64,000 bases of DNA from the human T2T-CHM13v2.0 reference genome, Homo sapiens. How positions within the stretch are numbered: position 1 is the first letter of the stretch; each line of letters opens with the position of its first letter. Positions 5,046-61,734 of the stretch are shown one piece after another. The stretch lies in assembly GCF_009914755.1 (NCBI RefSeq), contig NC_060925.1. One strand, written 5' to 3'. Under the pieces are notes generated by a model. It searched no databases. It saw nothing but the letters and a program-made list of their open reading frames with translations, and had not been told where the DNA came from. The translations under genes and the position numbers were made by a program.

Positions 5046-5471
5046 TGTATTAGACTGTTCTGGCATTGCTATAAAGAAATACCTGAGATTGAGTAATTTA
5101 TAAAGAAAAGAAGGTTTAATTAGCCACAATTCTGCAGGCTGTAAAGGAAGCATGATGTTGGCATCTGCTCGACTTCTGGAGAGGCTTCAGGAAACTAACA
5201 ATCATGGCAGAAGGTGAAGAGGAAGCAGGCACTTCACATGGCCAGAGCAGGAGCAAGAGAGAGAGGGGGGAGGTGCTACACACCTTTAAATGACGAGATC
5301 TCATAAAGAAGTCACTCACTATTGCAAGGACAGTACCAAGGGGATGGTACTAAATCATTCATGAGAAATCTGCCCCCATGATTTAAACACTTCCCACCAG
5401 GTCCACCTCCCATATGGGGAATTACAACTGAACATGAGATTTGGGTGAGGACACAGATCCAAACCATATCA
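5046..5471 (-). mobile_element. MSTA-like ERVL-MaLR solo LTR
   Basis: Starts tgtattag and ends ccaaaccatatca, the reverse complement of the MST TGATATGGTTTGG...CTAATACA termini. Confidence 0.88.
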
Positions 5472-6530: not shown

Positions 6531-9126
6531 GCTTAGAACTTCCTATCATGTTCCTTCTTCTTCCACCTACTTCATTATTGAAGAAACAGCTCAGAGTTGG
6601 TGGGAGGAAAAGAAGAATGTATTTCAGACACACAAAAGCAAAATTTGGAAAAGAAATAACAGAATGGGACCTTGGAAGTGATTTTCCTTTGTGGATGTGT
6701 TTATCTGTAAGGACATGTTTGAGGGTATGAGGTTCACAGACAAATGCCACGATTCGCACCCGAGAGAACTGAGGATAGAGCCATGCTGAATTCTAAGGGG
6801 GCAATCTTGTCTTGAGAAATATTGCTTCATAAGTGGGTCTACCCCTGCTTAAGTAAAATATCCAATTAATTTACTAGAACGCTGCATTGTCTGACTACAA
6901 GCAATTAATTTAATGTTACTCAATATCATTTCATTATTTGCCTCCCAAAAAAGACAGTTCTATATAACACATTTTCTAAATGATGCAAATAAGGATAAAT
7001 GAGAAAATAAGGTAACACAAGAGGCATCGTTGAAGATGATGAGCATGTTCTTACTGGAACAAAGCTTGGGTTGACACAGGAAATCTCCATAAGAAATCCT
7101 GTTTTTGCCCCATGACTTTCCCAACTGACCTAAAGTCTGGTCAATCTCCAAGTGCAGTCTGCGCAGAATCTGAATTCATCCACAGATTAAGAATGAAAAC
7201 ATGCCTCTTCCATTAAACCAACAAGTGTGAATGCCAAACTGCAGTTTGACATATACAGAAATTGAGGGAAACTGGAAGTAAAAAAAGAAACCTGAAATGG
7301 GTGATGTCTCCTAATAAACACCTTATTCACTGCCAGCTCTGCAAACTTGCTTTGTGCCAAAACCCATCCACGAGACTCCACAATACTCCTGACCCTGGTA
7401 GCTGTCATTTTTGGGATACGCTAAGCGTCTAGGAAAGTCTGGGAAATACCAGAGTTCAGAAGCACCTTCTTTCTGTGAAGGAGCCTAAAGGATATTCCAA
7501 GGCAACTTTCTAATTTTTTGGTTGAAATTTTCTTCATGCTTCTGTTTGGTGAGCTGCTCAGCTGACTCCCATGCCTGAGCTTCACAGTGCCAGCTCCCGC
7601 TGACCCTTGAGAGGGAAATGGAACCTGAGATTGTCAAAGCTGGAGGGGACCTGAATGATCATCCCCTCTAGCCCAACCTCCTCTGTTTACAGATCTGAAG
7701 GCAGGGAGCCTGAAACCCACCCAGCATCCTGGGAGTAAATGTGCTTTCCTCCCTTCTTCTATTTCTGTGCGATTTTCCCATGGCATCCAGCCAGAGCATC
7801 TACACCAGTAATGTCTAGAGGATTTATGAGGCCAAGCGATCCTTTGGGTTTCTACGCAGACCTAAACAGGAAACCCACACAAGGAAATGCCCTTTCTGTT
7901 TGCAGGCCAAATTCCCAGGATGCCTTCGCCAGAGTGCCCTGGCTGGAACAAAACAAAGGCCTGGCACAATAAATGCCCTTAGCTCCAAAGGCAGAGGTGC
8001 CCTCCCCACCTCTCCCCACCTCTCCCCATCCCCTCCCTAGTCCAGGAGGCCCTCTATTAGTTTAATGAGAATGAAACTTCCTTCTCTCAGAACTCAGCTT
8101 CACTTAATCCAACTGGTTGAGATGCTGGAGGGGGTCCCCCTGGATCTCCAGGTGGATTTCAGGGTATTACTTCTCCTTACCTGTGCAAAGTCAACCTGGG
8201 CAAGTCCTCCAGGTTAATTAACCAGACACCCTACTCACACCCCTCTTATTCTTTCTCCATGTTTAGCCCCTAGAAGATGCCTTAGAGATGAAAAAAAAAA
8301 CACACGCATTTCCTAATGAAGAGGCAGCCAGATGCAGCCTCTGAGCCCTGACTGCACAGTGTGACAGTCACTCAACCCAACACAGCTCTCTTGCCTTTGC
8401 TGCAACCTCAACACCCTGCGTCCTGCCAAATCTCTTCCCATTTCATCAGTCCATCTATGCTGGTGTCCAGCCATTCCAGCCCACCATGGCATTTAAAAAT
8501 CTTTCCAGCTCTCTGTGGAAGATCTGAGACTTGAGAAAGAGACTGTTGCTCAGGGCTGGACAGGAAGGAAGTATGCATTCCTGGCTCCCAGAACAGAACA
8601 GCAATGTGGGTGACCCTTCGTCCCCTCCCCAAGGCGTCCCCTTGGGCCGACACAAAAATAGATTCTATCCTCCTTGGTTCGTCTCCACCTCCCTCGGGAA
8701 AGAAGACACAGGCTTCGAGTGAGTCAACAGTATTATCGGGGCTTGACTGTCTTTCAGGAATGACCAGATGTTGGGAAGAGGATAATGTGCCATTTCCTTT
8801 AACAAATAGTCCGGGCATCTGTGCATTTCCTTTTGAGCCAGCTCTTCAGGAGACTGTGCCGCTGTGACAGGGAAGGACGAATCACCCTGGTTTCTACTCT
8901 CACGGATACTAGGGGGCTCCTTGAACCCTTTGGATTCCAGCCCTCCATTAAGAAAATATTTCTGTCCTTTGTATGCATGAGTGACACCACGAGAAGACAG
9001 CATAGGGAGTGGTTACAAGCAAAGAATTTAGAGACAAAATAAATGCTCTAAGGGAAAAAGACAAGTAGCCAAGGAACGCTGGGAGAGGGCTTGGAGGAAG
9101 CAAATTGTTCATCCATTCCCCCAAAT

Positions 9127-9281
9127 CAGTGGTTCTCAGTAGAAAACCAACATGAGTAACATTTGCCTGGGAACTTGTCTACCACCCCAGCCCTACTGAA
9201 ACTCCAGGGGTGAAGCCCAGCAATCTCCTTTGACAAGCCTTCCAGGAGATTCTGATGTGAGCTCAAGATTGAGAACTACTG
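9127..9281. mobile_element. MER5A hAT MITE
   Basis: TIRs cagtggttctca ... tgagaactactg; internal gcccagcaatct...gattctgatg. Confidence 0.75.
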
Positions 9282-9343
9282 ATCCAGATAGATCTTAGCT
9301 GGTCCTGGGGCTTCCCAGAAAGCATTTTTAAAAAAGCAGAGAT

Positions 9344-9900
9344 TCTCCTCCACAGGAGGCCTACATGCTGCCACCTCTGTGGCCACCATGTCTCTAGTGA
9401 TCCCTGAAGAGTTCCAGCATATTCTGCGAGTACTCAACACCAGCATCGGTGGGCGGTGGAAAAAAAGCCTTTGCCATCACTGCCATTTAGGCTGTGGGTC
9501 GAAGATATGCTCATGCGGTGTTGAGGAAAGCAGACTTTGACCACACCAAGAGGGCAGGAGAACTCACTGAGGATGAGGTGGAACGTGTGATCACCATTAT
9601 ACAGGATCCATGCCAGTACAAGATCCCGGACTGGTTCTTGAACAGACAGAAGGATGTAAAGTCTGGAAAATACAGCCAGATCCCAGCCAATGGACAACAA
9701 GTTCTGTGACGACCTGGAGTGATTGAAGAAGTTTCAGGCCCATAGAGGGCTGCGCCACCTCTGGGGCCTTCGTGTCTTGAGGCCAGCACAGCAAGACCAC
9801 TGGCTGCCATGGCTGTACTACGGGTGTGTCCAAGAAGGAATAAATCTGTAGGCCTTGTCTGTTAATAAATAGTTTATATACCAAAAAAAAAAAAAAAAAA
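9344..9900 (+). pseudogene. RPS18P3: Processed pseudogene of ribosomal protein S18 (probably RPS18P3; paralog number from memory)
   Basis: Intronless copy of the RPS18 mRNA: 5'UTR, ATG 9388 (MSLVIPEEFQHILRVLNT), [47 protein letters not shown] 9841, AATAAA 9864, poly-A 9883-9900, TSD aaaaa(a/t)gcagagat. Disabled by a +1 frameshift near 9460, an in-frame TAG and a 5-nt deletion near 9693. Confidence 0.95.
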
Positions 9901-10951
9901 TGCAGAGATAGTGTGGGATGATTACCTGAGAAAATGCTTTAGCTCCCTTGCAGGGGTGGAAGGAAGGGACAGGACTTGTAAATGAGGCTATTCTGGCAAG
10001 AGAAAGATCCTACAAATAGAAATGAACTGACAGCAAATAAAACAATCCAAGATGCATCTTATCTCTCTGCTCATACTGCATTAATTTGCAGCACTTCTAG
10101 AATATGGCTCAATGACGTAAGAGTATATTCACAGCATATTTTTCAGTTTAAATAAAATGCTCAATGTGGGCCCAATTATGTAAAACGTACGTGCATATCA
10201 ATCCATATTTAGAAAAAATATTAGAAGATTATATATCAAAATGTGATCATCTCTGGGTGGTGGAATACGAATAACCTTTACTTCATCCTTTATGATGTTT
10301 TGTTTTTTCCCCAATGTTTCCATAATAAATAGGTATTTTTTAATAACAAAACAACTGTAATAAAGTGACAAGCTCGTTGGGTCAAAATAGTCATTTAAAA
10401 AAATCTGTATAGCCCTCTCCAGAGGCTACCTCTCCAAGAATTTATGTCACACTGATAATTAGCACCACCTGTTACACTTGTGCTAAAATGGGCACAAAGA
10501 ACGTTGGATTCAGAACTTATAAAGAGATTGTTAAACTCATCAGCTCTAGTTGAAACCAGCACAGCAGGGAGAGCTGCAGAAAAATGTCAGTCAGAGCCCA
10601 CCCTGGGGCTCCGGGGCCTCGCTGGGGCTGGCCCAGGGCCCTCGTGTGCTTCCAGCACGTGAATCTGGGTTGCTGGGTGTCCTCAGCAGCCTGCAGGGAT
10701 CCACTGTCCTTCTGCACAGCTTTGTTCGGGAGCCCCAGCACCCTCTCAGTTTTTACACCCTGATTTCCTACCAGGGAGAGGCCCTGGGCAAAAACAAAAC
10801 AAAATGAAAACACTGAAAGGGCTCTCAAAGCCTAGAAAGGAAGAAAGGACAATGGAACGTGATGTAAGGGTCGCTAAACAGCCAGTGACTCAGCGCTTCT
10901 GCACCATCAACACCAGCTGCAGCCTGCAGCGGTGGCCGTGGCAGCTCACAG

Positions 10952-34465: not shown

Positions 34466-40450
<5,985 letters not shown>

Positions 40451-40900
40451 AGAGATCCTGGAACCCAGAGCTGATGACAATATCTAATCCAGGCAGAATA
40501 CTAGAGGAACCCCCTGGACTTGCTTTGTGGAATATTTTTGTTGTAAAACTGCAGGTGTTACATAGGCTCTTCCAGTTGCAGATAATAGACGTTCATTCAG
40601 ATTGATTCAAATAATCAGTGTTTTCTTTTGTCATCATGCTCATGAAAATAAAGATGAGAAATTTAGCCCACAGCCTAACCTCATGAGAACCCGGGGACAG
40701 CCAAAGAGCTGTATTAGCTTAATGTAGTTTCGAAGAAATTTCGGTGGGTTGATGCTAGCTAAGCTGCAATTGCTTCTTATAACACTGCTTGGCTTAGGCC
40801 ATAGAACATAGTACTAGAGCAGAGTTAACTGTGAAGAAACATAACTGTGAGGTCCAGGTATGTATGAATCTGAGAGTCTGCCTTAATCAAAAGAACAAAA

Positions 40901-42700
40901 CTGGGTGCAGTGGTGGGCACCTGTAGTCCCAGCTACGCAGGAAGCTGAGGTGGGAGGAGCCCTTGAACCCAGAAGTTCAAGGCCAGCCTGGGCAACATAC
41001 TGAGACCCTGTCTGAAAAATAACAAAAAACAATTCTAGATTAAGTAGGGAAATAATTTGACTACATATATTTCAGGCTATTCTGGTAAATATTATTTTTG
41101 CAATCAAACTTTTGATACGTAGTCTTAGAGGTTATTCTTTCCAAGTAATATCTGAATTGCCTGGCATATAGTTGTTCAGTAAATATTTCTTGAATGAGTG
41201 AGAGTTATTTTATGTTACTGATTAAGAACATACCTTTGTGCTTTAATGAGAGGTAGGCCACTTGAGTAAATTCAAGTCCAATGCACAAAGAAGGGCCAAG
41301 GGAGTGTTCACAGGCAAAACACATATTTTAGAAAATAGTTCTAAGTCTGTTCTGCATGGAACAAATGGATGATTGAAGTCCAAATTTCTATGTCATGAGA
41401 CTTGGTAATGATGACTTTTGTTTAGATTTTAAAAATATGAGCATTAATAAATGCTTAAGCAAACACTATAGAGTCTCAGTAAAGTAGCCATAGAACATCT
41501 AAACAAAACTAATTGGCTATATATGTCCAGGTGAATTTCTAGATTCTATTCTGTTCCATTGATCTCTATATTTTATATAGGTCTGATATCTTTTATGACT
41601 TAATCTAGATTTATAGTAAATAATAAAATGTTGTAGTGTATGTCCTCTAACACATTTCTTATTCAACTTTTGATTATTCTAAAACTTTGCATTTCCTTAT
41701 AAATTTTAGTATCAGCCTATCTGTGGGTTTTTTTTTTTTTTTTGAGATGGAGTCTTGCTCTGTCACCCAGATTGGAGTGTAGTGGCGCAACCTCAGCTCA
41801 CTGCAACCTCCACCTCCCAGTTCAAGTGATTCTCCTGCCTCAGCCTCCTGAGTAGCTGGAAACAGGTGGCTGCCACCACACAGCTTTTTTTTTTTTCAGT
41901 AGAGTCAGGGTTTTACCATGTTGGCCAGGCTGGTCTTGAACTCCTGACCTCAAGTGATCTGCCCACCTCATCCTCCCAAAGTGCTGGGATTACAGGTGTG
42001 AGCCACTGTGCCTGACCCTGTCTGTTGGGATTTTAATTAGGATTCCACTGAATCTGTGGAGTAATTTGGGAGATAACTGACATTTTTAAATATATTGAAT
42101 CTTTCAATCCATAGACAAATTATATCTCACTATTATTTAGATCTCCTTTAATTTATCTTAGCAATGTTTTGTTATAGAGGTCAGCTCATATTTTGTTAAA
42201 TTTATCTGGTGGTGTACTGGTGAACCTGCTCTTTGGGGTGACGGTGGTTAGAAAGCCCTAATTTGCGCTATTTGCCAATTTCTGTGATGTAGATACACTA
42301 TGATCAATTTCAGGCTATCAATGTAATGTCATTAATGAGTTTGGAAGAGATGACAATAAATTGTTGTGTGAGCCAGTTCCAATACACATTGGATATATTC
42401 CTAAATATTTCATGGTTTTGGGCACTATTTTAAATACCTAGTATTGTAAGTGTTATGTTTTGAGTGATTGGCTTTTACTGTCTTTTCTTTTCTTTTTTTG
42501 AGATAGGGTTTTGCTCTGTTGCCCAGGCTGGAGTACAGTGGCACAACCACAGCTCACTGCAGCCTTAACATCCTGGGCTGATTCTCCTGCCTCAGCCTCC
42601 TGAGTAGCTGAGACTATAGGCATGTGCCACAATACCTGGCTAATTTTTGATTTTTTTTTTTTTTGTAGATATCAGTTCTCACTATGTTGCTCAGGCTGGT
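40901..42700. mobile_element. Alu monomer (40901-41030 +), old minus-strand L1M remnant (about 41515-42460) and Alus (41728-42017 -, 42483-42700 -)
   Basis: ctattctgttccattgatct..gaatctgtggagtaatttggggagataactgacat are reverse L1 ORF2 motifs. Confidence 0.7.
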
Positions 42701-42828: not shown

Positions 42829-45800
42829 ATGGGTAAGACACAGAGTTCTAGCATGTCCCCCAGCGTCAACCCCAAGCAGGACAGGGGCAGGAGGTCAGTG
42901 GAACCCTTCTGCGGGTCTGAGATCTACGAGTAGGCAGCAGCCAGCAAGGGCCAAGGTGGCGGCAAAGAGGAGCAGATGCACATCATGGGTGTAAAAGGCT
43001 GACCACTTGTGTGTCTCCCAATGCCAGCCCCAAGCAGGACAGGCACAGAAGGTCGGGAGGGCCCTCTGACCTGTCTCAGAACTATGAGCCAGTGGCAGTG
43101 AGTGAAGGCACAGATGGCAGCAGAGAGGGGCAAAAGCACCCCATGCATAACACACTGACCTCTTGGTGACCGAGAGTGCCAACCCCAAGCAGGGCCAGTG
43201 CAGGAGGTCAGTGGACCCCTACTGCATATGTGAGATCAACAAGCAGATGGCAGCAAGAGAGGACACTGGCAGCAGTGGAGAGGAGCAGAGTCGCCCCATG
43301 GGTAGCAGGCTGAGCTCTCGTGTGTCCGAGTGGTGGTTCCAAGCAGGGCCGGCACAGAAAGTTGACGGAGTCCTACTAAGGGTGTGAGATCTCTGAGCAA
43401 GCTGCAATGAGCAAACACGCAGATGGCAGAGGAAAGGAGCAGAAGCACCGCATGGGCAAGACACTGACCTCTTGCATGTCCCCCAGTGCTGGCCCCAAGC
43501 AGTATTGCTGCAGGAGCTCAGAGAAGCCCTACTGCGAGTTTGAGATCTATAAGCAGGCTGCAGAGAGCAAACATGCAGATGGTAGAGGCGAGGAGAGAAG
43601 GAGCCCCATAGGTACCAGGCTGACCTCTTTCATGTCCCCTAATGCCAGCCCCAAAAGGGCCGGTGCAGGAGGACTGCAGAGTCTCACTTCAGTTCTGAAA
43701 TCTACCAGCAGGCAAAAGCAAAAGATAGCGCAGGTAGCGACAGAGAGGAGTAGAGGCACACCTTGGGTAAGACATTGACCTCTTGCATGTCCCCCATTGC
43801 CAGCCCCAAGCAGGACAGGTGCAGGAGGTTGGCAGGGCCCTACTGTGGGTCTGAGATCTACGAGCAGGCAGCAGCCAGTGAGGACTCAGGCAGTAGTGAC
43901 GATGAGCAGAAGCGCACCACGGGTAACAGGCTGACCCCTTGTGTCTTATGCCAGCCCCAAGCAGCACAAGCACAGGAAGTTGGCAGAGCCCTACCATGGG
44001 TCAGATCTACCAGCAGGCAGAAACAAAGAATGGTGCAGATGGCAGTGGAAAGGAGCAAAGGCACACCAAAGGTAACATGCTGACCTCTTCCGTGTCCTTC
44101 AGTGCCAGGCCCAAGCAGGACCAGTGTAGGAGGTAGGCAGAATCTTACTGCGAGGCTGAGACCTAGGAGCAGACAGCAGCTGCAAACATGCAGATGACAG
44201 AAGAAGTGGAGGTGCCCTGTGGATCACAGGCTAACTTCTCATGTCCTAGAGTGCCAGCCCCAACCAGGCTGACCCAAGACTTCGGCGGGAACACTACTGT
44301 GAGGCTGCATTCTCCAAGCAGCCTGCAGGAGGCATACAAGCAGATGGCAGAGGAGAGGAGTGGAGGCGCCCCATGGGTCACAGGCTAACCTCTTGCATGT
44401 CCCGGGGTTCCAGCTCCAAGCAATGTCAGTGCAGGAGATCGACAGAATTCTACTGTGGGTCTGAGATCTCCGAGCAGGCTGCAGAGAGCAAACATGCAGA
44501 TGGTGGAAGAGAGGAACAGAGCTGCTCTATGGGTAACAGGCTGGCCTCTTGTATGTCCCAAAGTGCCAGCCCCGAGTGGGGTTGGCACAGGAGGTTGGTG
44601 GGGGACTACTGCAAATCTGAGATCAAGGAGCAGCCAGCAGCAAGCAAGGGCACAGGCAGCAGCAGAGAGGAGCAAAGATGCCCCATGGGTAACACTCTGA
44701 TTTCTTGCATGTCCCCTAGTGCCAGCCCCAAACAGGACAGGCATAGGAAGTCGGTGGAGCCCTACTGTGAGTTTCAGATGTATGAGCAAGCGGCAGCGAG
44801 TGAAGGTGTAGGTGGTAGTGGAAAGAAACAAAGGCACCCCTTGGGTAATGCATTGGCGTCTTGCATGTTCCCCAAAACCAGTCACAACCAGAGCTGGTGC
44901 AGGAGGTCAGTGGAACTCTACCTCAGATCTGAGATCTACGAGCAGGCTGTAGTGAGCAAACATGCAGATGGCAGAGGAGAGGGGCAGAAGTGCCCCAAGA
45001 GTAATATGCTGATCATTTATGTGTCTTGAAATGCCAGCCATGAGCGGTGCTGGTACAAGAGGTTGGCGGAGCTCTACTGGGGGTCTGAGATTTATGAGGA
45101 ACAGGAGGCAATGATCAAAGGTACAGATGGCAGTGGATAGGACTGGAAGAACCCTCTGGGGAACATGCTGACTACTTGTATGTCCCTCAATCCCAGCCCC
45201 AAGTAGGGCTGGCACAGGAGATTTGTGGAGCCCTATTGTGGGTCTGAGATCTATAAGCATGCAGCAGTGAGTAAAGGTGCAGGCCACGGTGGAGAGAAGT
45301 GCAGGTGCCACATGGGTAACATGATGACCTCTTGCGTGTCCCATGCTGCCAGCCCCCAATAGAGCTGGTGCAGGAGGTCAGTGGAGCCCTATTATGAGTT
45401 TGAGATCTATGAGCATGCAGCATTGAACAAAGGCACAGGCAGTGGTGGAGAGGAGTGGAGGTGCCCCATTGGTAACATGCTGAACTCTTGCATCTTCCCC
45501 AATGCCAGCCCTGTGTGGGGCTGCTGCACAGGGCTGGTGGAGCCCGATTGTAGGGCTGAGATCTATGAGCAGGTGGCAGCAAGCAAAAATGCAGGCAGTG
45601 GCAGAGAAGAGTGGAAGCTGGTCTGGCACAGGAGATCAGTGGAGCCCTACCCACAGGTCTGAGATCTGCAAGCAGGCAGCAGTGAGCAAAGGAACATATG
45701 GCAGTAGAGAAGAGCAGAAGTGCACCATGGGGACCATGCCGACCTATTGTGTGTCACCCAATGCTAGCACCAAACTGGGCTGGATCAGGGGGACAGCGGG

Positions 45801-45962
45801 GTCCTACTTCAGGTCTGAGATCTGTGAGCAGACAGCAGCAAGCAAAGGTTGACATGGTGGTGAAGAGGAGCAGAACCACTCCATGGAAAGCATGCTGACT
45901 TGTGTGTCCCCCAATGCCAGCTCCAAGCTGGTCTGCCAAAGGACATCAGTCTGAGCCCTACA
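42829..45962 (+). repeat. About 20.5 x 156-bp diverged tandem array derived from CCNYL-family exon 1 (5'UTR plus first ~35 codons)
   Basis: Unit starts at 42829, 42985, 43143, 43298, 43452, 43608, 43763, 43919, 44068, 44219, 44373, 44529, 44685, 44841, 44997, 45156, 45312, 45468, ~45620 (partial), 45727, 45883. Example unit MGNTLISCMSPSASPKQDRHRKSVEPYCEFQMYEQ versus recalled CCNYL1 MGNTLTCCVSPNASPKLGRRAGSAELYCASDIYEA. Confidence 0.9.
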
Positions 45963-46951
45963 ATTTATCATTCTATGAGACTTTTTCGAAGCTTTCTTCA
46001 TATCTTCTTTGCCTTTTCTTAATGAGAACTCAAATACTCCAACTTCTGAGTACCCATCCCATTCTCCTTATCTATCTAGATGGTACCTAAATGAAGGAGC
46101 CAGGTAAGAGTCTGATTGTTCCCTTTCTCTTATGTGTTAAGGTAGCTGATACTTGGGAAAATTTAGACCCAATGTTTAGGGATTTCTTGCTTAAATTCAG
46201 AATAGAGGTTGGCGTATGGAGTTTTTAATAAGTTGTTTTAAGTCACCTCGATAGAAATGGCTTTATTCCTCCAACTATAATTTGAACACTGAAGGGAAGA
46301 AAATTGGAGAAGTGCTTAAAATGATTATGAATGGTGTAAAATGTTACTGCCAGGGCTGCAGAATAGTTGATGGTTTTTTAAACCCAAAGCTTACCCACAG
46401 TGTTTTGATTGCTTTAAGATTTCCTCTTTAACCCAAATATATCTTCAGATCTACTCTGGTGACTTACTGGACTTCATTTTCCTCCTTGTTCTAAAAGTGG
46501 AGGGGTGGTTCATAGTAAAAAAATTTCAAGAGCTGGAACATAAATTCAGAGTTACATTTGTGATGTAAAGGTTTGGGAGTTTAAAATGCCAGATGCTGCC
46601 TGTTCAAGTGTTTGTTTCCATAGCTCCCTCCTCATGTCAACAGAATTATGTTCAAAGATGAGAGTGTTAGAGTTCAAACTCTAATCTCTGATAGGGATGG
46701 AAAGGGGGGAGATGAAAGAAAATTTTTAATATTTTACCATCAGAAAAAGAACGAATTTAAGTAGAAATGGTTTTGAATAATATGGTTCTTGAATAAAAAC
46801 TAAGTTCTTTGAAATAGAAAACATTGTATCATAAAGATAGTTAAATCTGGTTGTCTCATTTGTTTTAATAAATGCCAGATATTTCATTAGTATAGAGAAA
46901 ATGTCTTATAGCTCTTCTGTTTAAACTTTGATTGGGCTCTTAATTTCTTTA

Positions 46952-47270
<319 letters not shown>

Positions 47271-47873
47271 AAGAAGAAGAATTAAAGCTCATGATGTATG
47301 TGCCTTTATAACTGGAAAGTACCATATTCAATTTTCAGAATATTCAATAATAGTGAAAGAACGAATAGATTGTGTTAATAGATTGTAACTTTATGCACAA
47401 AGTATGGAAGTACTTGTGAATATTTATGCTCTGTTTGGTGGTGTAAGGTAAACCTCAGTGACTTTACACACCAGTTGGTAGATGGGTAGTGCTGGATGAG
47501 ATCCCAAAATAGGCTCTTCATGTCTTTTTTTAGTATGTACAACACATTTTAATGTACATCTTATTTGGCCCTTCCAAACACAAATAAGGCCTGTGTATAT
47601 TCTCCCTGTATTGATGATGAAAAAACAAAGACTTTGAGATCTGAAATGACTATGTAAGACAGCTACTGAACAGAACTAAGGTTCTATAGTAAGTACCCTG
47701 AAACTGACATGGAGATGGTAGCGATGCCTAATTCAGTTCCTAAACTTTAAAACTGTGGAATACATTGTATGTTTTACCTATAAAGTAAACTTATCTCTTA
47801 GAACTTACTCCACCTTGATTAGTTCAATTAAAAGCTTATTTTATACAACTCAGAGGCAACATTTACCTGTCCA

Positions 47874-48010
47874 TTTTTTTTTCTAAAGGGAAAGGGGTCT
47901 TAACTGTGTTGCCCATACTGGCCTCAGTCTTCTGGCCAGGGCTCAAGTGATCCTCCTGCCTCAGCCTCCTGAGTAGCTGGAATTACTGATATATTCCATC
48001 TTGCCTGGCT
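47874..48010 (-). mobile_element. FAM/FLAM Alu monomer
   Basis: Reverse Alu monomer. Confidence 0.7.
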
Positions 48011-48700
48011 CCATCTTATGTCTATACATTAATTTCAACAGATACGGATAAAAGTAGAGGTAATAAAATTACCCAAATTTACCAATCAAGCAGGTTAATA
48101 ATTTTTAAAGAGTTTTCTCTTGTCACTGTAAATTGAAGCTGAGAATTTCCTGGACAAGAGAAGCTGGAGACAGGAGAGGTAAGGTATCATGCCTTAAGCA
48201 TAGAACAATAATAAGGAGTGTTAAATCAGAAAAGTTAAAAAAATAGTTTGTGAGCACAGAATTTAACATTTTGTTTATTTGCATGACACTTAAATTTTCA
48301 TTTCAATTTGCCTCTTGAAATTTATTTTTCTGGCATTCAATAAAGTGATAAGCGAAACCTCAATTTCAGCATTTGCCTACAATTCCTAAGTTTCCATAGA
48401 AACTGAGGCAGGACATTAACAGTTTGCTGTTAATATCTTTAGTTTGGACAATTTTATATCAGTTTACTTGGAAACTGAGAAATTCCTACTTAGATGTAAA
48501 ACATTTTAGTTTTACTGCAATGAAGAATGGAATTATTTTGGTTACTTAGAAAAAAATCAGATGTAAATAGTGTACTTTGTTCTTCTGAATCATTTCAGAA
48601 TAATGTGATTTCTCCAAGCCACTTCACAGAGATATTCCTAAGAACCTTTTTTCAGATAGTCCCACAGACATTTTCTACTACCTTGCCTTTATTTAAACAG

Positions 48701-51071
48701 TTATATGGTTTGGCTGTGTGTCCCCAGCCAAATCTCACGTTGGATTGCATAATTCCCAGTGTTGGGGGAGGGATCTCGTGGGAGGTGATTGGATCATGGG
48801 GGCGTATTCCCCCTTTGCTGTTCTCACAATAGTGAGTTCTTATTATATCTGATGCTTTGAAAGTGTGCAACACTTCCCCCCTTTGTTCTCTCTCTCCTGC
48901 TTCACCACTGCAAGACATGCTTGCTTTCCCTTCACTTTCCACCATAATTGTAAGTTTCCTGAGGCCACTGAGCCATGCTTCCTGTACAGCCTGTGGAACT
49001 GTGGGTCAATTAAACTTCTTTTCTTTATAAATTACCCAGTCTCAGGTAGTTCTTTATAGCAGTGTGAGAAAGAACTAATACAGAGAAGGGGGGCATTGCT
49101 GGAAAGATACTTGAAAATGTGGCAGCAGCTTTGGAACTGGGTAACAAACAGAGGTTGGAACAGTTTGGAGGGCTCAGAAGAAGATAGAAAGATGAGGGAA
49201 GGTTTAGAACTTCATAGAGACTTGTTGAATGGTTTTGACCACAATACTGATAGTGATATGGACAGTGAAGTCCAAGCTGAGCTGGTCTCAGATGGAGATG
49301 AGGAACTTATTGGGAACTGGAGTAAAGGTCACTCTTACTGTGCTTTAGCAAAAAGACTGGTGGCTTTGTGCCCCTGTTACAGAGATCTGTGGAACTTTGA
49401 ACTTGAGAGAGATGATTTAGGGTATCTGGTGGAAGAAATTTCTAAGAAGCAAAGCATTCAAGATATGGCCTGGCTGCTTCTAAAAGCTTACATTCATTTT
49501 CATAAACAAAGAAATTACCTGAAACTAGAACTTACATTTAAAAGAGAAGAAGAGTGGAAAAGTTTGGAACATTTGCAGCTTACCCATGTGGTAGAAAAGA
49601 AAACCCGTTTTCTGGAGAGGAATTGAAGGCTGCAGAAATTTGCGTAAGTAAAGATTAACTGAATGTTAATAGCAAAGACAATGGGGAAAATGCCTCCAGG
49701 ACATTTCAGAGACCTTTGTGGTAGCCCCCCCCACATCACAGGCCTGGAGGCCTAGGAGGGAAGAATAATTTCATGGGCCAGGCTCAGAGTCTTGCAGCTC
49801 TCTGCAGCCTCAGGACATGGCACCCTCTGTCCATGCTGCTCCAGCTCCAGCCATAGCTAAAAGGGGCCAAGGTACAGCTCAGACCATTGCTTCTGAGGGT
49901 GCAAGACCCAAGCCTTGGTGTTTTTCATGTAGTATTGGGCCTGCAGGTGTGCATAAGGCAAGAGCTGAGGTTTTTGAGTCTCTGCCTAGATTTCACAGGA
50001 TGTATGAAAATGCCTGGATGTTGAGGCAGAATTCTGCTGCAGGGGTGGAGCCCTTGTGGAGAACCTCTACTAGTACAGTTCAGAGGGGAAATGTGGTGTT
50101 GAAGCCCCTGTACAAAGTCCCCATTGGGGCACTGCCTAGTGGAGCCGTGAGAAGAGGGCCACCATCCTCCAGACCCCAGAATAGTAGATCCATTGACAGC
50201 TTGCACTGTGTACCTGGAAAGCTTCAGGCACTGAATGCCAGACTGTGAAAACAGCTATGGTGGCTCTACTCTGCAGAGCCATAGGGTCAGAGCTTCCCAA
50301 GGCCATGGGAGCCCACCCCTTGCATCAATATGGCCTGGATGTGAGCTATGGAGTCAAAGGAGATTATTTCAGAGCTTTGAGACTTAATGGCTGCCCTGCT
50401 GCATTTTAGACTTGTATGGGGCCTGTAGCCCCTTCATTTTGGCCAATGTCTCCCATTCGGAATGGGTTTATTCATCCAGTGACTCTACCCCCATTATATC
50501 TTGTAACTGTTTATTTGCAGGCTCATAGGTAAAAGGGATTTGCCTTGTCTCAGATGAGATGTTGGAGGTGGACTTTTGAGTTAATGCTGAAATTAGTTAA
50601 AACTTTGGGGGACCGCTGGGATAGCATGACTGTGTTTTGCAATGTTAGAAAGACATGAGATTTGGGAGGGTCCAGGGTAGGATGATATAGTTTGGCTCTG
50701 TGTCACCATCTAAATCTCATGTCAAATTGTAATTCCTAATGTTGGGGGAGGGATCTGGTAGGAGGTGATTGGATCATAGGGACATTTCTTCCTTGTTGTT
50801 CTCATGATATTGAATGAGTTCTCATGAAATCTAGTTATTTAAACGTGTGTAGCACTTCCCCCTTTACTCTCTCTCTCCTGCTTCACCATGTTAAGACGTG
50901 CTTGCTTCCCCTTCACCTTCTGCCATGATCGTAAGTTTCCTGAGGCCTCCCAGCCATGATTCCTGTACAGCATACAGAACTGTGAGTCAATTAAACCTCT
51001 TTTCTTCATAAATTACCCAGTCTCAAGTGGTTCTGTGGTTCTTTATAGCAGTGTGAGAACAGACTAATACA
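48701..51071 (+). mobile_element. Two-LTR MaLR element (MSTA/THE1D-like): 5' LTR 48701-49082, internal 49083-50682, 3' LTR 50683-51071
   Basis: Two homologous LTRs ending actaataca; internal ORF remnant GWNSLEGSEEDRKMRE..IGNWSKGH..RDLWNFELERDDLGYLVEEISKKQSIQ is the MaLR-int ORF. Confidence 0.9.
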
Positions 51072-51543
51072 GTTGGGTTTTATTCCTTTCAACAGCAAGC
51101 CTATAGAAAAAGATCAACTGCTTGGGCTGGAGGAGAAGAACACTTAGGTCAATACATGATTTGTTAGCAACCAGCTAGAGTTTAGGAGAGAACACTTTTG
51201 CTGTGCACTTGAAAAGAAACCTGTCTATGGGCACTGGATAAGACACAGGCCTTTTCATGAAGCTTCAAGCCATTCAGAAAGCTTAGCACATGATGGAGGA
51301 AAACAGGAATGGTGTTTCCAGATGTAGAGAGATAGGTGATGCTGGAGGGAAAGCTGGATCAGAAGAGAAGGAGTTCATTGTAGATGAATTAGGTTTAATG
51401 TCCCTGTGAGATAGCAGAGTGGTAGTGTTCAGTCATCATGTGGATATACCGGACTGGAACCTGAATGTGAGCTAGAGGTAATGAATGAGCAGTATGAGTA
51501 GCTACTTAAATGTGGAGAAAGTGTGTAGAGTGAAAGTGGACAT

Positions 51544-51672
51544 GCTGGGCATGGTAGCAAATGTCTCTAGTCCCAGCTGCTTGGGAGGCTGAGGTGGGAG
51601 GATTGCTTGAGCCCAGGAATTTTTGTGTGGCCTGTGCAACATGGTGAGACCCCATCTCTTAAAAAAAAAAAA
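51544..51672 (+). mobile_element. FAM/FLAM Alu monomer within an L2 remnant
   Basis: Alu monomer with A tail. Confidence 0.75.
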
Positions 51673-52470
51673 GAGAGAGAAAGTGAATAGAAGATAGGCC
51701 TGTAAGGACTATCAGGATGTAAGGAACAAGCCCTCAGATATGTAGGTAGAATTGGAGGAGGAAAAGCAGGATAGGTTACTAAAAGAACAAAGAATTCAAG
51801 ATAATAGAGGCTGTGATACAGTGCTAAATGCTGCCAGGAAGTTGTTCACTCTGTAAACACTGAATGCTGACTCTGCCACTCTTCTAAGTGCTGGAGTAGA
51901 GAGGACAGGTTGAACACAGTTTTTGCCTTTATGAGCTTATGGCCTAATGAAGAAGACATTTTTTTTTTTTCAGGTAGTGGCAAATAGCAAGAAAAGAAAT
52001 TGGGATAAAAGGAAACAGAGTGATTGGAGGAGTTCTTAATTTTAGATCGAATGAGAAGGAGCCTCTCTAGAGAAGTAACATTTGAAAAGTGACCTGACAA
52101 AAGTGAGGAAGGGAAGGAGCACGGACATTACAGGCACTGAGGTGAGTGCCAAGACTGGGACAGAAATGTGTTTCATATGTGTTCAGTGAACATATAGCAA
52201 GGGGGCCAGCATGGTCAGAGTGAGAAATGAGGGAAGTAATGGAGAAGATGAGATCACACAGGCAATGCCATAACTCACAGGGCCTTTTGTCTTGCAGGCC
52301 ATGGGAAGAAGTCAAGTTTTTATTCCAGTTTTATGGGTAACTTTTGTCATATCTTGAGCAGGGGAGTGCAGTGCTCTCAATTTAAGAAGTTATGCTGACT
52401 GCTTTGGGGGGAGTAGACCATAGCAGGGAGGCAAAGTAGAGGCAGAGTAGAAAGTTAAGAAGCAACTAGG

Positions 52471-58907
<6,437 letters not shown>

Positions 58908-59676
58908 AAGAAGCAACTAGGATGATACAGGTGAGCAGTGAAAAATGGCAGCACAGAATCAAAAATATGCAGCCTACCAGTGAAAGTAGACATAGCAGGA
59001 GTTGCACACAGATTGGAACAAGCCAATTCAAATGTATGTATCTGGCCTCACAAGTGGGGAAAATAAAAATGCCCTGTACAAGATTAGGGAAGGCTTGGGG
59101 AGTGGAGCATTGGGATGAAGAGCTCTGGTTTGCAGATGTGAAGGTTGGGCACCTTGGCATGAGGAGTCTCTGGAAAGTGATGGTGGCAGGGGCCAGGTGG
59201 GTTTGGTTAAGGAGAGATGGGAGGTGAGAAGCGGGCACCAGGGCATGATGCTGTGAGCAAATGAGGACATCTCTGGGGGAGTTTTGGAGAGTGGGATGAG
59301 AATAAAGGAAACACAGTCATATTGGGGAAGATTTCGGGCAGAGGGAAAGTCTTCAAAAAGAGGTGATTGCAGGAACAGTGTTCTGCGGAAGTGGGACAGG
59401 ATCAACCACACTGATAAGAGAGTTGGCATAGTGGGAAAAAGGAACTCTCTCTCATTGACCCAGGAAGGCAAGTGGTATCAATGAGTGTCCACAGGTTACC
59501 AGCTTAGCAGTAAAGGCAACAGGCAGTTGAGGGCTTGCCAGTGCTGTTTCAATGCTCTCTAATATCTATAGAACATTAACCTGGGGCAGGAGGTTCATTC
59601 TTAGGATACTTGAGAGTGTGGAGTTTGGGTGCAAGGGAGAAGAATCTAAGAATACATTGTGTTCAAGAGCCATTTT

Positions 59677-59865
59677 GTTTTTGAAAACACTGTTGAGTTT
59701 GGGGAACACTGCCGGATCTGAGTTGCCAACCTAACTTTCAGATACTAAACAAACTCTTAAAATGAACTGTTTTGAAAACACAGTTGGGTTTGGAGAACGT
59801 TGTCAGATCTGAGCTGCCAATCTGATAACCTTCAGACAATAAGCTCTCATAAAATGAACTGTTTT
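59677..59865. repeat. Two-copy ~92-bp tandem duplication
   Basis: ttttgaaaacac..gtttgg..gatctgag.tgccaa..ttcaga..taaaatgaactg occurs twice. Confidence 0.85.
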
Positions 59866-60151
59866 CCTTTTGTCTTGATACATAGTTCAAATGATATATA
59901 GACCATATGCTTCTGCAGAGCACCCTTTGAGGTAACAACACCTCACGGCTTACCTCCATAACCTTTACTCAACTGTTCACTTTACCAAATTCTTTGCAGG
60001 TAGATGTTTGATAGATGTAAAATACTTCATGAGATTTTCTCACAAACTGCTTGGCAAGTTTAGGGAATCCCAAGGATCAGAGACTGACAGCTGTTACTGC
60101 CTTTAAGCCAACAGAATTGACAATGTTGCAGATGATGTAAGACAGAAAATA

Positions 60152-60585
<434 letters not shown>

Positions 60586-61142
60586 TCATGCTGTTCTGCA
60601 CAGCAGCCACTGGGAGGCTCTCTTGGCTAGCTGTTCAAGCTAGCGCCACAGAAGGATTAGTTATTGTGAAAAGGAGAAGATAGCAATGTACTCAGTATCC
60701 CCTGGGTTTTATACAATCAAGCATGACATACCTGTGAAATTCCTATCTACCTGCAAACTAGATATAGCAACACATTGCACAAGGTGGGCACTGAAGTATT
60801 CATTTAACAACTTTAATGCACACTGGGCCTATGCATGTGCTGCCTTTTATGGGTGTGAAGGTAATGACTCCATCTGTCTTCATGATACCCTTGGCTGAGA
60901 TGTCCAGTCATTCCTGTGATCAAAATTGGACTGGAAATTTCTAAGGACAGAGTAGATGGCAGAGACATCTGACTTACAACTGTGATTTGATCTCTTGCTT
61001 TGGCTGACTAAGCAAAATCTGAAGAATATAAAAATAAAAGGCATTTATTTTCTGGCCAAAAACAGAAGTAATCTATCATTCATGCATTCTTATCACAGCA
61101 GCTAAATTGAACTAAAATAAAACATCAGTGCTCTCTTTGCAA

Positions 61143-61307
61143 ATTTACCTGGAAAGGATCTTGACTTATGCTGAAATTGACATTTGTCCATCTAACTGGA
61201 AAAGGATTTCCTTGGGAGTCATTCTTTTTGCCTCCAAGATTATGCATGATCAAGCTGTACAAAGTGGAAAACTGTCAGATCTTCAAGGATATCCCAGTAA
61301 AAGACAT
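61143..61307 (+). pseudogene. Decayed cyclin Y-like cyclin-box exon
   Basis: [39 protein letters not shown], then after a 2-nt deletion [15 protein letters not shown] (recalled CCNYL1 [56 protein letters not shown]); donor gtgagt 61308-61313; acceptor reads ctctctttgcAA. Confidence 0.9.
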
Positions 61308-61734
61308 GTGAGTTTATAAGGTTTTGTTAAACTTTCTAACCGTTTTCAAATACCTCATTTTTTCCCATAAAGTTAACACTTTAAAAATATTTTGAAAGGT
61401 AACATTGTACAGATAATGAAGATAGGTATAAAACTACCTAGTTTTTCTATCCAGATTCAGTATAACAATTCATATTTTTTCATTATTAATGAATAAGTCT
61501 TGATGTGTTACTGTTGCAGTAATCTGCCTGAGAAATTGAAAAGTATTTTCCAGTATTTATTTTTGGCAAGCATCTTACAAGTGTATTACCAGAACAACAC
61601 AGTACAATAAAGATTTTTATGGCTTTCTACAAGCTGTCAGTTTTAGTCATTTTTTAAGGAGTACATGTCTGGCCTTTGAAATAATTGGCTACTGGAGAAG
61701 TTATAACTTCAATGAGTTATACCAAACTTACAGA

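What the first reader, a model, noticed from the sequence alone, without database searches (positions are those of the whole stretch)
61120..61320. Orphan intron-flanked CCNYL cyclin-box exon with a dead splice acceptor
Seen: cyclin Y homology begins right after a pyrimidine tract ending ttgcAA and ends exactly at GACAT|gtgagt, with a 2-nt deletion near 61260. Knowledge (recalled): these are the boundaries of a CCNY/CCNYL1 exon, so this is a genomic duplicate, not a retrocopy. Inference: AG>AA killed the acceptor. Co-linearity with the exon-1 array 15 kb upstream independently supports the array's origin and defines one CCNYL paralog.
Basis: partly seen in the sequence, partly recalled or inferred. 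Interest (0 to 1): 0.72.

Follow-up and report, generated by a model that had tools for sequence, protein, structure and literature searches.

The report
Decayed genomic fragment of cyclin-Y-like gene
This stretch of human chromosome 1 is one leftover exon of an old, broken genomic copy of the cyclin-Y-like gene CCNYL1, with its introns still attached; it is an ordinary dead pseudogene, and its anatomy shows how it lost most of its exons.

Summary
Window 61143-61307 (+) is a copy of CCNYL1 exon 8, 78.8% identical, and its protein reading matches Cyclin-Y at E 3.5e-15. It has AA where 5 of 7 family copies have the acceptor AG. It keeps the gtgagt donor and carries a 2-nt frameshift deletion.

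Intron homology flanks it on both sides, so it is a genomic duplicate and not a retrocopy. It is co-linear with the upstream array at 42831-45968, which holds 21 units of about 156 bp. Each unit is the last ~52 nt of the 5'UTR plus the first ~35 codons. The order is array, start of intron 1 (to 48696), one LTR element (48701-51071), end of intron 7 (from 51072), exon 8, then 383 nt of intron 8, ending at ~61690 against LINE-like sequence.

Exons 2-7, 9 and 10 are absent. Changes on this lineage look neutral (15 nonsynonymous, 7 synonymous). The locus is a deep lineage of its own. It is nearest CCNYL1 by identity and weakly sister to the chr16:39.08 Mb copy, with which the array shares its duplication junction. 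It is a new member of a known kind and of low general interest.

The parts
42831..45968 (+). Tandem array of 21 units (19 full units of 149-159 nt, one of 102 nt, a last one of 84 nt). Each unit is the last ~52 nt of the CCNYL 5'UTR, the ATG and ~35 codons of exon 1.
   Evidence: TRF found period 156. nhmmer gave 21 hits. Unit alignment and consensus are, and the comparison with CCNYL1/CCNYL2 exon 1. Mean pairwise identity is 65%, and 70-81% to the consensus.
45963..48696 (+). Copy of the 5' part of CCNYL intron 1 (CCNYL1 locus 6642-10263), interrupted by an Alu-like insertion at about 46955-47273.
   Evidence: blastn blocks at 73-77% identity to CCNYL1 and 72-75% to the chr10:43.3 Mb copy.
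48701..51071 (+). LTR-type retroelement with two ~385-bp direct repeats (48703-49083 and 50685-51072, 79.9% identical). It sits exactly at the junction of the intron-1 and intron-7 pieces. The 5-bp flanks differ (AACAG and GTTGG).
   Evidence: The family name (MaLR-like) is recalled from the end motifs and was not tested. Pfam found nothing in its two longest frames.
51072..52471 (+). Copy of part of CCNYL intron 7 (CCNYL1 locus 37215-39030).
   Evidence: blastn at 74-80% identity.
53668..58912 (+). LINE-type insertion splitting the intron-7 copy. It is not part of the pseudogene.
   Evidence: 85-87% identical to two long elements in the chr10:43.3 Mb locus. RVT_1 pieces lie at 56673-57309 (E 9.9e-5 and 5.5e-8).
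58908..61142 (+). Copy of the 3' part of CCNYL intron 7 (CCNYL1 locus 39016-41254), with an Alu-like insertion at about 60148-60454. The acceptor dinucleotide is AA at 61141-61142.
61143..61307 (+). Copy of CCNYL1 exon 8 (cyclin box), 165 nt, with a 2-nt deletion between about 61258 and 61263.
61308..61690 (+). First ~383 nt of the intron-8 copy, starting with the intact donor gtgagt. Homology to all five other unprocessed copies stops at 61686-61694.

Best explanation
Window 42.8-61.7 kb holds one old, unprocessed (DNA-level) and now partial duplicate of the CCNYL1 gene lineage. It has no coding function.

Shown: the layout, 5' to 3' on the + strand, is as follows.
- An exon-1 start module amplified to 21 tandem units.
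- The first ~4 kb-equivalent of intron 1.
- One LTR element.
- The last ~4 kb-equivalent of intron 7, split by a LINE and an Alu.
- Exon 8.
- 383 nt of intron 8.
The copy then ends against LINE-like sequence.

Shown: the exon 8 copy is disabled by AG>AA at its acceptor and by a 2-nt frameshift. It has drifted at the neutral rate.

Inferred: exons 2-7 were lost by ectopic recombination between two same-sense LTR elements, one in intron 1 and one in intron 7. That would leave a single hybrid element with no target-site duplication.

Inferred: the tandem duplication of the start module predates the split from the chr16:39.08 Mb copy (probably CCNYL3; the name is recalled). It then expanded to 21 units only here.

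Inferred: the duplication is roughly 60-110 Myr old. This comes from 0.26 changes per site to CCNYL1 and recalled neutral rates of 1.2-2.2e-9 per year.
For: Exon homology and boundaries.

Co-linear blocks: blastn of window+30 kb against the 70-kb CCNYL1 locus gave 11 co-linear blocks. These remained after I dropped HSPs whose query or subject stretch was covered by more than 2 HSPs; 2000 HSPs were returned, which is the cap. The same order holds against the chr10:43.3 Mb locus, where 19 of 1141 HSPs were kept.

Exon map: 10 exons, derived from two retrocopies.

Missing exons: exons 2-7, 9 and 10 gave only chance hits (E >= 0.008) in 94 kb.

Junction at the LTR element.

3' break specific to the window: the five other copies stay alignable to each other past it and the window does not. 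An intron-8 probe found 6 places in the genome, none on chromosome 1.

Neutral drift: 15 nonsynonymous and 7 synonymous window-derived changes, 32% synonymous, against 21-32% expected without selection. The exon branch is 0.22 and the flank branch 0.14-0.16.

No shared Alus: none lies at matching positions in the window and CCNYL1.

Shared CDS-to-5'UTR junction with chr16:39.098 and its relatives.

Best 2.1-kb tree: it joins the window with chr16:39.08 (71/72), inside a 100/100 split from the CCNYL2 clade.
Against: - The window+chr16 grouping is weak. Trees joining the window or chr16 to CCNYL1 are not rejected (p-AU 0.225 and 0.192). The 1.26-kb tree left a polytomy.
- The array-consensus tree puts the window weakly (75/80) beside CCNYL2 rather than chr16.
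- Exon 8 is only 63.6% identical to the chr16 exon.
- The pairwise dN/dS against CCNYL1 is 0.19, which taken alone would suggest past constraint. Polarising the changes removes that signal, but on only 22 changes.
- The missing target-site duplication could be decay or a 1-2 nt error in the element's ends. The two LTRs are each other's best match in the window (80% against <=73%), which also fits a single insertion.
- Pfam does not reach its cut-off.
- Transcription was not testable.
Confidence: 0.9

Rival explanations
1. The exon is a fragment of a processed retrocopy (reverse-transcribed mRNA) that happens to lie near an unrelated repeat array.
For: Three processed copies of the family exist in this genome: chr19:21.89, chrX:64.25 and chr16:23.78 Mb.
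Against: In the window, intron 7 and intron 8 homology abuts the exon on both sides. The donor gtgagt and the acceptor tract are in place. In the retrocopies exon 8 is fused directly to exons 7 and 9.
Confidence: 0.01
2. The array with its intron-1 piece and the intron 7-exon 8-intron 8 piece are two separate duplicative transpositions. They landed side by side and are not one gene copy with an internal deletion.
For: CCNYL 5' fragments (exon 1 plus the start of intron 1) did spread on their own to many places. The exon-1 probe gave 48 matches, including chr4:193.28, chr10:26.6-27.0, chr9, chr20 and the acrocentric short arms. The two pieces meet exactly at a retroelement.
Against: Both pieces have the same strand and the gene's order. 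Both have the same distance profile: 78.0% and 78.8% to CCNYL1, and ~64-75% to the other genomic copies. The window's intron-1 piece reaches CCNYL1 position 10263, whereas the dispersed fragments stop near 6532 apart from a 57-nt scrap. The dispersed fragments also carry a 12-nt gap in unit 2 that the window units lack.
Confidence: 0.07
3. The locus is not mere debris. The exon or the array has been taken over for a function, such as a non-coding transcript, a regulatory element, or an array that organises chromatin.
For: RefSeq lists an enhancer at 53089-53588 inside the locus (hub table). That stretch lies between the intron-7 block and the LINE. In the MGN frame 10 of 21 units have no stop.
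Against: Window-lineage changes in exon 8 fit neutrality. Array units have decayed to 65% mutual identity. The low stop count in that frame follows from the consensus being open in it. The supplied table has no gene model here.
Confidence: 0.04

Closest known systems
CCNYL1 (cyclin Y-like 1), chr2:208.18-208.23 Mb in this assembly
   Same: Exon 8 has identical boundaries and is 78.8% identical. Introns 1, 7 and 8 are alignable at 73-81%. The exon-1 start module is 78% identical to the array consensus.
   Different: CCNYL1 has 10 exons, a single start module, an AG acceptor and an open frame. The window copy keeps only the exon 1 module (21 times) and exon 8, both decayed.
CCNYL2 and CCNYL3, the two CCNY-like sequences that the literature calls pseudogenes (passage in bioRxiv 10.64898/2025.12.15.694124). 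They are taken here to be the chr10:43.30 Mb and chr16:39.08 Mb copies; that assignment is recalled and was not tested.
   Same: They are unprocessed DNA-level duplicates of the CCNYL1 lineage, with intron homology to the window across the same 2.4 kb. The chr16 copy shares the tandem start-module junction.
   Different: Both keep all exons tested and an AG acceptor. The window copy is not nested in the CCNYL2 clade, which is chr10:43.30 + chr9:109.03 + chr19:30.50 at 100/100. The chr16 copy's retrocopy shows 3 start units; nhmmer found 2 in the chr16:39.098 exon-1 locus itself. The window has 21.
Processed CCNYL retrocopies (chr19:21.89, chrX:64.25, chr16:23.78 Mb)
   Same: They are dead copies of the same family and contain exon 8 sequence.
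   Different: Their exons are fused with no introns. The window copy has introns.
Dispersed CCNYL 5' fragments in pericentromeric, acrocentric and 4q35 duplications
   Same: They derive from the same exon-1 start module and have the same CDS-to-5'UTR duplication junction.
   Different: They have only about 2 units, a 12-nt gap in unit 2, about 0.5 kb of intron 1 and no exon 8. They group with the chr16 copy at 93/92.

Membership tests
Unprocessed (duplicated) pseudogene of the CCNYL1 lineage | Significant sequence similarity to a coding exon of the parent | tested here: met
   blastn E 9e-36, 78.9% over 166 nt. Cyclin-Y in PDB at E 3.5e-15. Genome protein search E 4.9e-13.
Unprocessed (duplicated) pseudogene of the CCNYL1 lineage | Exon limits coincide with the parent's splice junctions | tested here: met
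   Start and end align base for base with CCNYL1 exon 8. The donor gtgagt is kept.
Unprocessed (duplicated) pseudogene of the CCNYL1 lineage | Intron sequence of the parent on both sides of the exon | tested here: met
   58908-61142 matches intron 7 and 61308-61690 matches intron 8, at 73-81%.
Unprocessed (duplicated) pseudogene of the CCNYL1 lineage | Other gene parts present in the parent's order and orientation | tested here: met
   Exon-1 array, intron-1 start, intron-7 end, exon 8 and intron-8 start all lie on the + strand in order. Exons 2-7, 9 and 10 are absent.
Unprocessed (duplicated) pseudogene of the CCNYL1 lineage | Disabling lesions and neutral substitution pattern | tested here: met
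   2-nt frameshift and AA for AG. 15 nonsynonymous and 7 synonymous derived changes against 21-32% synonymous expected. The sample is small.
Cyclin domain (Pfam PF08613 / cyclin box) | Score above the curated Pfam cut-off | tested here: not met
   13.7 bits against a cut-off of 21, E 0.083, on a 39-aa fragment. One exon is about a quarter of the domain, so the test says little.
Processed retrocopy | Neighbouring exons fused, no intron sequence | tested here: not met
   Introns flank the exon.
Functional CCNYL paralog | Full exon set, open frame, usable splice sites | tested here: not met
   8 of 10 exons have no copy. There is a frameshift and an AA acceptor.

The most novel reading that the evidence does not exclude
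An early CCNYL paralog acquired a tandem duplication of its translation-start module (5'UTR end plus the Met-Gly-Asn N-terminus). That one event would mark a whole lineage: the chr1 locus, where it ran to 21 units; the chr16:39.08 Mb gene, whose mRNA carried 3 units as its retrocopy shows; and the dozens of CCNYL 5' fragments now spread through 4q35, chr10p12, pericentromeres and acrocentric short arms. On this reading the chr1q42 locus is a surviving relic of the source of that duplicon family. It sits 10-25 kb from two beta-tubulin-8 pseudogenes, as the 4q35 fragment sits 68 kb from one. It may once have encoded a protein with a repeated N-terminal module.
Probability: 0.25. Interest if true: 0.45.

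Novelty: new member of a known kind. Interest (0 to 1): 0.22.

Why it matters
The finding adds an unlisted, anatomically resolved member to the human CCNY/CCNYL family. The passage I read names only CCNYL2 and CCNYL3 as extra copies, and the RefSeq table supplied for this window has no model here.

It is a clean case of how a duplicated gene is dismantled. The steps seen or inferred are a probable retroelement-mediated loss of six exons, a truncation, a splice-site hit and a frameshift.

The shared duplication junction gives a discrete character for ordering the CCNYL duplicates and the widely dispersed CCNYL 5' fragments in segmental duplications. It does not bear on cyclin Y biology, and nothing suggests a present function.

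Tried and rejected
- Retrocopy reading: rejected on flank homology.
- Past constraint on the exon: pairwise dN/dS of 0.19 looked like it. Polarising with four other copies put 5 of the 16 synonymous differences on the CCNYL1 side and left 4 unclear. The window lineage is left at 15:7, which is neutral.
- The chr16:23.78 Mb retrocopy as offspring of the window locus (it has 3 start units): rejected, because its exon 8 is 93.4% identical to chr16:39.08 and 64.8% to the window.
- Search for remnants of exons 2-7, 9 and 10 by blastn (word size 7) and tblastn in window+30 kb: chance hits only.
- Search for the rest of intron 8 elsewhere on chromosome 1: none among 6 genome hits.
I therefore do not know whether those copies also lack exons or how long their arrays are beyond +/-1.5 kb.
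- Pfam on frames of the 61.7-64 kb stretch and of the LTR element gave nothing usable. Calling 61.7-64 kb LINE-like rests on 65% DNA similarity to the RVT-bearing elements and on recall.
- Literature: three searches found no paper describing a CCNYL copy at 1q42 or the array. They were CCNYL2/CCNYL3, CCNYL4-7/CCNYL1P/CCNYL1B, and CCNYL with 1q42, unprocessed pseudogene, FRG1 or TUBB8. The symbol CCNYL6 occurs once in print without a location, so named pseudogenes beyond CCNYL3 exist whose positions I could not check.

Full report
OBSERVATION

The window is T2T-CHM13 chr1:226610001-226674000 (hub note). At 61130-61142 the sequence reads gctctctttgcAA. An exon-like stretch follows at 61143-61307, and then gtgagt. 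Frame A (61143-61259) gives [39 protein letters not shown]. After a shift of frame, 61258-61308 gives [17 protein letters not shown].

phmmer against all PDB chains returned one distinct sequence at E<=1: Cyclin-Y (9r2i_D), residues 198-237, E 3.5e-15. Pfam gave only PF08613 at E 0.083, below its cut-off, and nothing for the second-frame piece. One exon is too short for the domain model.

IDENTITY OF THE EXON

Searching the window's own assembly with 61100-61340 gave 6 matches. The best foreign one was chr2:208221214-208221454, 80% over query 4-241, so it includes both flanks. A protein search with the chr2 exon gave 11 matches:
- chr2 (CCNYL1) and chr10:35.58 (CCNY).
- chr10:43.30(-), chr16:39.08(-), chr19:30.50 and chr9:109.03.
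- The window itself.
- Three intron-less copies: chr19:21.89, chrX:64.25(-) and chr16:23.78.

I mapped the CCNYL1 exons by aligning two retrocopies to 70 kb of the chr2 locus. This gave ten blocks, and the block copied in the window is the eighth (chr2:208221255-208221421, 167 nt, tctattttacAG|GTTTAC...GAGGACAT|gtgagt). The names CCNYL1, CCNY, CCNYL2 and CCNYL3 for these places rest on my recall of their chromosomal positions, not on an annotation seen here.

Base for base, the window copy starts and ends where CCNYL1 exon 8 does. It is 165 nt because of a 2-nt gap between about 61258 and 61263. The acceptor is AG in 5 of 7 copies compared, AT in chr19:30.50 and AA in the window. The donor gtgagt is kept in 7 of 7.

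GENOMIC DUPLICATE, CO-LINEAR WITH THE ARRAY

I ran blastn of the window plus 30 kb downstream against the CCNYL1 locus. I discarded every HSP whose query or subject stretch was covered by more than two HSPs (interspersed repeats). That left 11 blocks of the 2000 returned, which is the cap. All 11 are on the + strand and in order:
- 46001-48506 with intron 1.
- 51077-52471, 58908-60084 and 60526-61100 with intron 7.
- 61089-61620 with exon 8 and intron 8.

A closer look extends intron-1 homology to 48696. The same order holds against the chr10:43.3 locus, where 19 of 1141 HSPs were kept. The retrocopies, by contrast, run from exon 7 straight into exon 8 and exon 9.

Exons 2-7, 9 and 10 of CCNYL1 gave only chance hits (E >= 0.008) in the 94 kb searched by blastn and tblastn.

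THE ARRAY

TRF reports a 156-bp period over 42847-45571. A profile search finds 21 units from 42831 to 45968: 19 full, one of 102 nt, and a last one of 84 nt that runs into the intron-1 homology.

Set against CCNYL1 and the chr10 copies, the unit is the last ~52 nt of the 5'UTR, the ATG and about 35 codons (MGN...EIYE). It is joined head to tail. Units are 65% identical to one another on average and 70-81% to their consensus.

The consensus is open in the MGN frame, which explains why that frame has the fewest stops. I take this as no evidence of coding.

HOW THE COPY WAS BROKEN

Between the intron-1 piece (ending at 48696) and the intron-7 piece (starting at 51072-51077) lies exactly one LTR-type element, 48701-51071. 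Its two ~385-bp terminal repeats are 79.9% identical. The 5-bp flanks, AACAG and GTTGG, do not match.

I infer that two same-sense elements, one in intron 1 and one in intron 7, recombined and removed the ~27 kb-equivalent carrying exons 2-7. Decay of the duplication, or a small error in the ends, could mimic this. The two repeats are also each other's best match in the window, which would fit a single insertion. I give the recombination step about 55%.

At the 3' side, homology of the window to all five other unprocessed copies stops at 61686-61694. Those five stay alignable to each other for 0.55-1.1 kb beyond that point, and none aligns to the window. An intron-8 probe finds 6 places in the genome, none on chromosome 1.

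What follows 61700 resembles, at 65%, the part of the RVT_1-bearing LINE elements just upstream of their reverse transcriptase. Other insertions (Alu-like at 46955-47273 and 60148-60454; LINE at 53668-58912) are private to the window. CCNYL1's Alus are private to it.

SELECTION AND AGE

Pairwise dN/dS between the window and CCNYL1 is 0.19, which alone would hint at past constraint. I polarised the 35 differences with four other copies:
- 22 are window-derived: 15 nonsynonymous and 7 synonymous.
- 7 are CCNYL1-derived: 2 nonsynonymous and 5 synonymous.
- 6 are unclear.

The window's 32% synonymous share is within the 21-32% expected for unselected single changes under a range of transition and CpG biases. 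The exon's branch (0.22) is not shorter than the flanks' branch (0.14-0.16). The copy has therefore drifted freely for most or all of its life.

With 0.26 changes per site to CCNYL1, and recalled neutral rates of 1.2-2.2e-9 per site per year, the duplication is roughly 60-110 Myr old. This is an inference, and it fits the lack of shared Alus.

PLACE IN THE FAMILY

- Exon-only tree (10 rows, 167 columns, rooted on CCNY): all copies fall on the CCNYL1 side. The window is a lone branch. chr16:23.78 is sister to chr16:39.08 (100/100). chr10:43.30, chr19:30.50 and chr9:109.03 form a clade (98/96).
- 1.26-kb tree of exon plus flanks (6 rows): the same CCNYL2 clade at 100/100, with the window, CCNYL1 and chr16:39.08 unresolved.
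- 2.1-kb tree: joins the window with chr16:39.08 at 71/72. The alternatives window+CCNYL1 and chr16+CCNYL1 are not rejected (p-AU 0.225 and 0.192).
- Array consensus: 78.0% identical to CCNYL1 and 68.8-72.5% to the nine other exon-1 copies. It is placed weakly (75/80) beside CCNYL2.

Exon and array thus have the same profile and do not group with different paralogs with any support.

A discrete character adds to this. The novel junction from the coding part back into the 5'UTR part is at the same place, within about 3 nt, in the window units, in chr16:39.098 exon 1, in its retrocopy (3 units), and in fragments at chr4:193.28, chr20:30.43 and others. CCNYL1, chr10:43.33 and chr10:39.05 have one unit. 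The chr16 copy and the dispersed fragments further share a 12-nt gap in unit 2 that the window lacks.

The exon-1 probe gave 48 matches, many of them in chr10:26.6-27.0, chr9, chr20 and the acrocentric short arms. These fragments carry only about 0.5 kb of intron 1.

LITERATURE

The one passage I read that lists the family says two further CCNY-like sequences, CCNYL2 and CCNYL3, exist in humans and are usually called pseudogenes (bioRxiv 10.64898/2025.12.15.694124, passage only). A review passage notes that there are no PubMed entries on the role of CCNYL2 (PMC6971155, passages only). CCNYL6 and CCNYL1B appear as bare symbols (PMC13027735 and PMC8096814, passages).

Three full-text searches turned up no description of a CCNYL copy at 1q42 or of its array; I saw only the listings for the rest. 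Supplementary tables were not opened. The RefSeq table supplied lists no gene here. GENCODE and HGNC tables could not be consulted and may already name it.

VERDICT

This is an ordinary, long-dead unprocessed pseudogene fragment and a new member of a known kind. It has a tidy anatomy and a modestly interesting link to a dispersed duplicon family.

Noticed in passing
window 42831-45968; L013 (chr16:23.78 Mb) 606-1002; L049 (chr16:39.098 Mb); L051-L059: The CCNYL start module (5'UTR end plus the first ~35 codons) is tandemly duplicated with the same junction in several lineages. An exon-1 probe gave 48 matches genome-wide, many in chr10:26.6-27.0 Mb arrays, chr9 and chr20 pericentromeres, acrocentric short arms and chr4:193.28 Mb.
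   Followed up: partly
downstream of the window: chr1:226681747-226683720 (+) and 226695393-226697367 (-): The two TUBB8 pseudogenes after the window are 97% identical inverted copies. A related copy lies at chr4:193350543-193352762, 68 kb from the chr4 CCNYL 5' fragment, so the CCNYL-fragment and tubulin-pseudogene pairing recurs at 4q35. Whether this is linkage or coincidence was not tested.
   Followed up: no
chr10:38246181-38246820 and chr10:39048433-39048571 (L027): These are further unprocessed CCNYL pieces in the chr10 pericentromere. One is an intron-8 copy, 82% identical to CCNYL1, with no exon 8 hit. The other is an exon 1 plus intron 1 copy close to the chr10:43.3 Mb gene.
   Followed up: no
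chr19:30504329-30504567 and chr9:109029282-109030485: These are two more intron-flanked exon 8 copies belonging to the CCNYL2 clade. The chr19 one has AT for the acceptor AG and a 1-nt deletion. The chr9 one keeps AG, but the exon's second half is scrambled.
   Followed up: partly
window 64486-67997 (partly beyond the window) and 5046-5471: Other copies of the same LTR family as the element at 48701-51071 occur here, including a second near-full element in the opposite sense just downstream of the window.
   Followed up: no
window 53089-53588: The RefSeq 'enhancer' lies in the gap between the intron-7 block (ending at 52471) and the LINE insertion (starting at 53668). It is in sequence with only weak repeat-like matches to the chr10 locus.
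   Followed up: no
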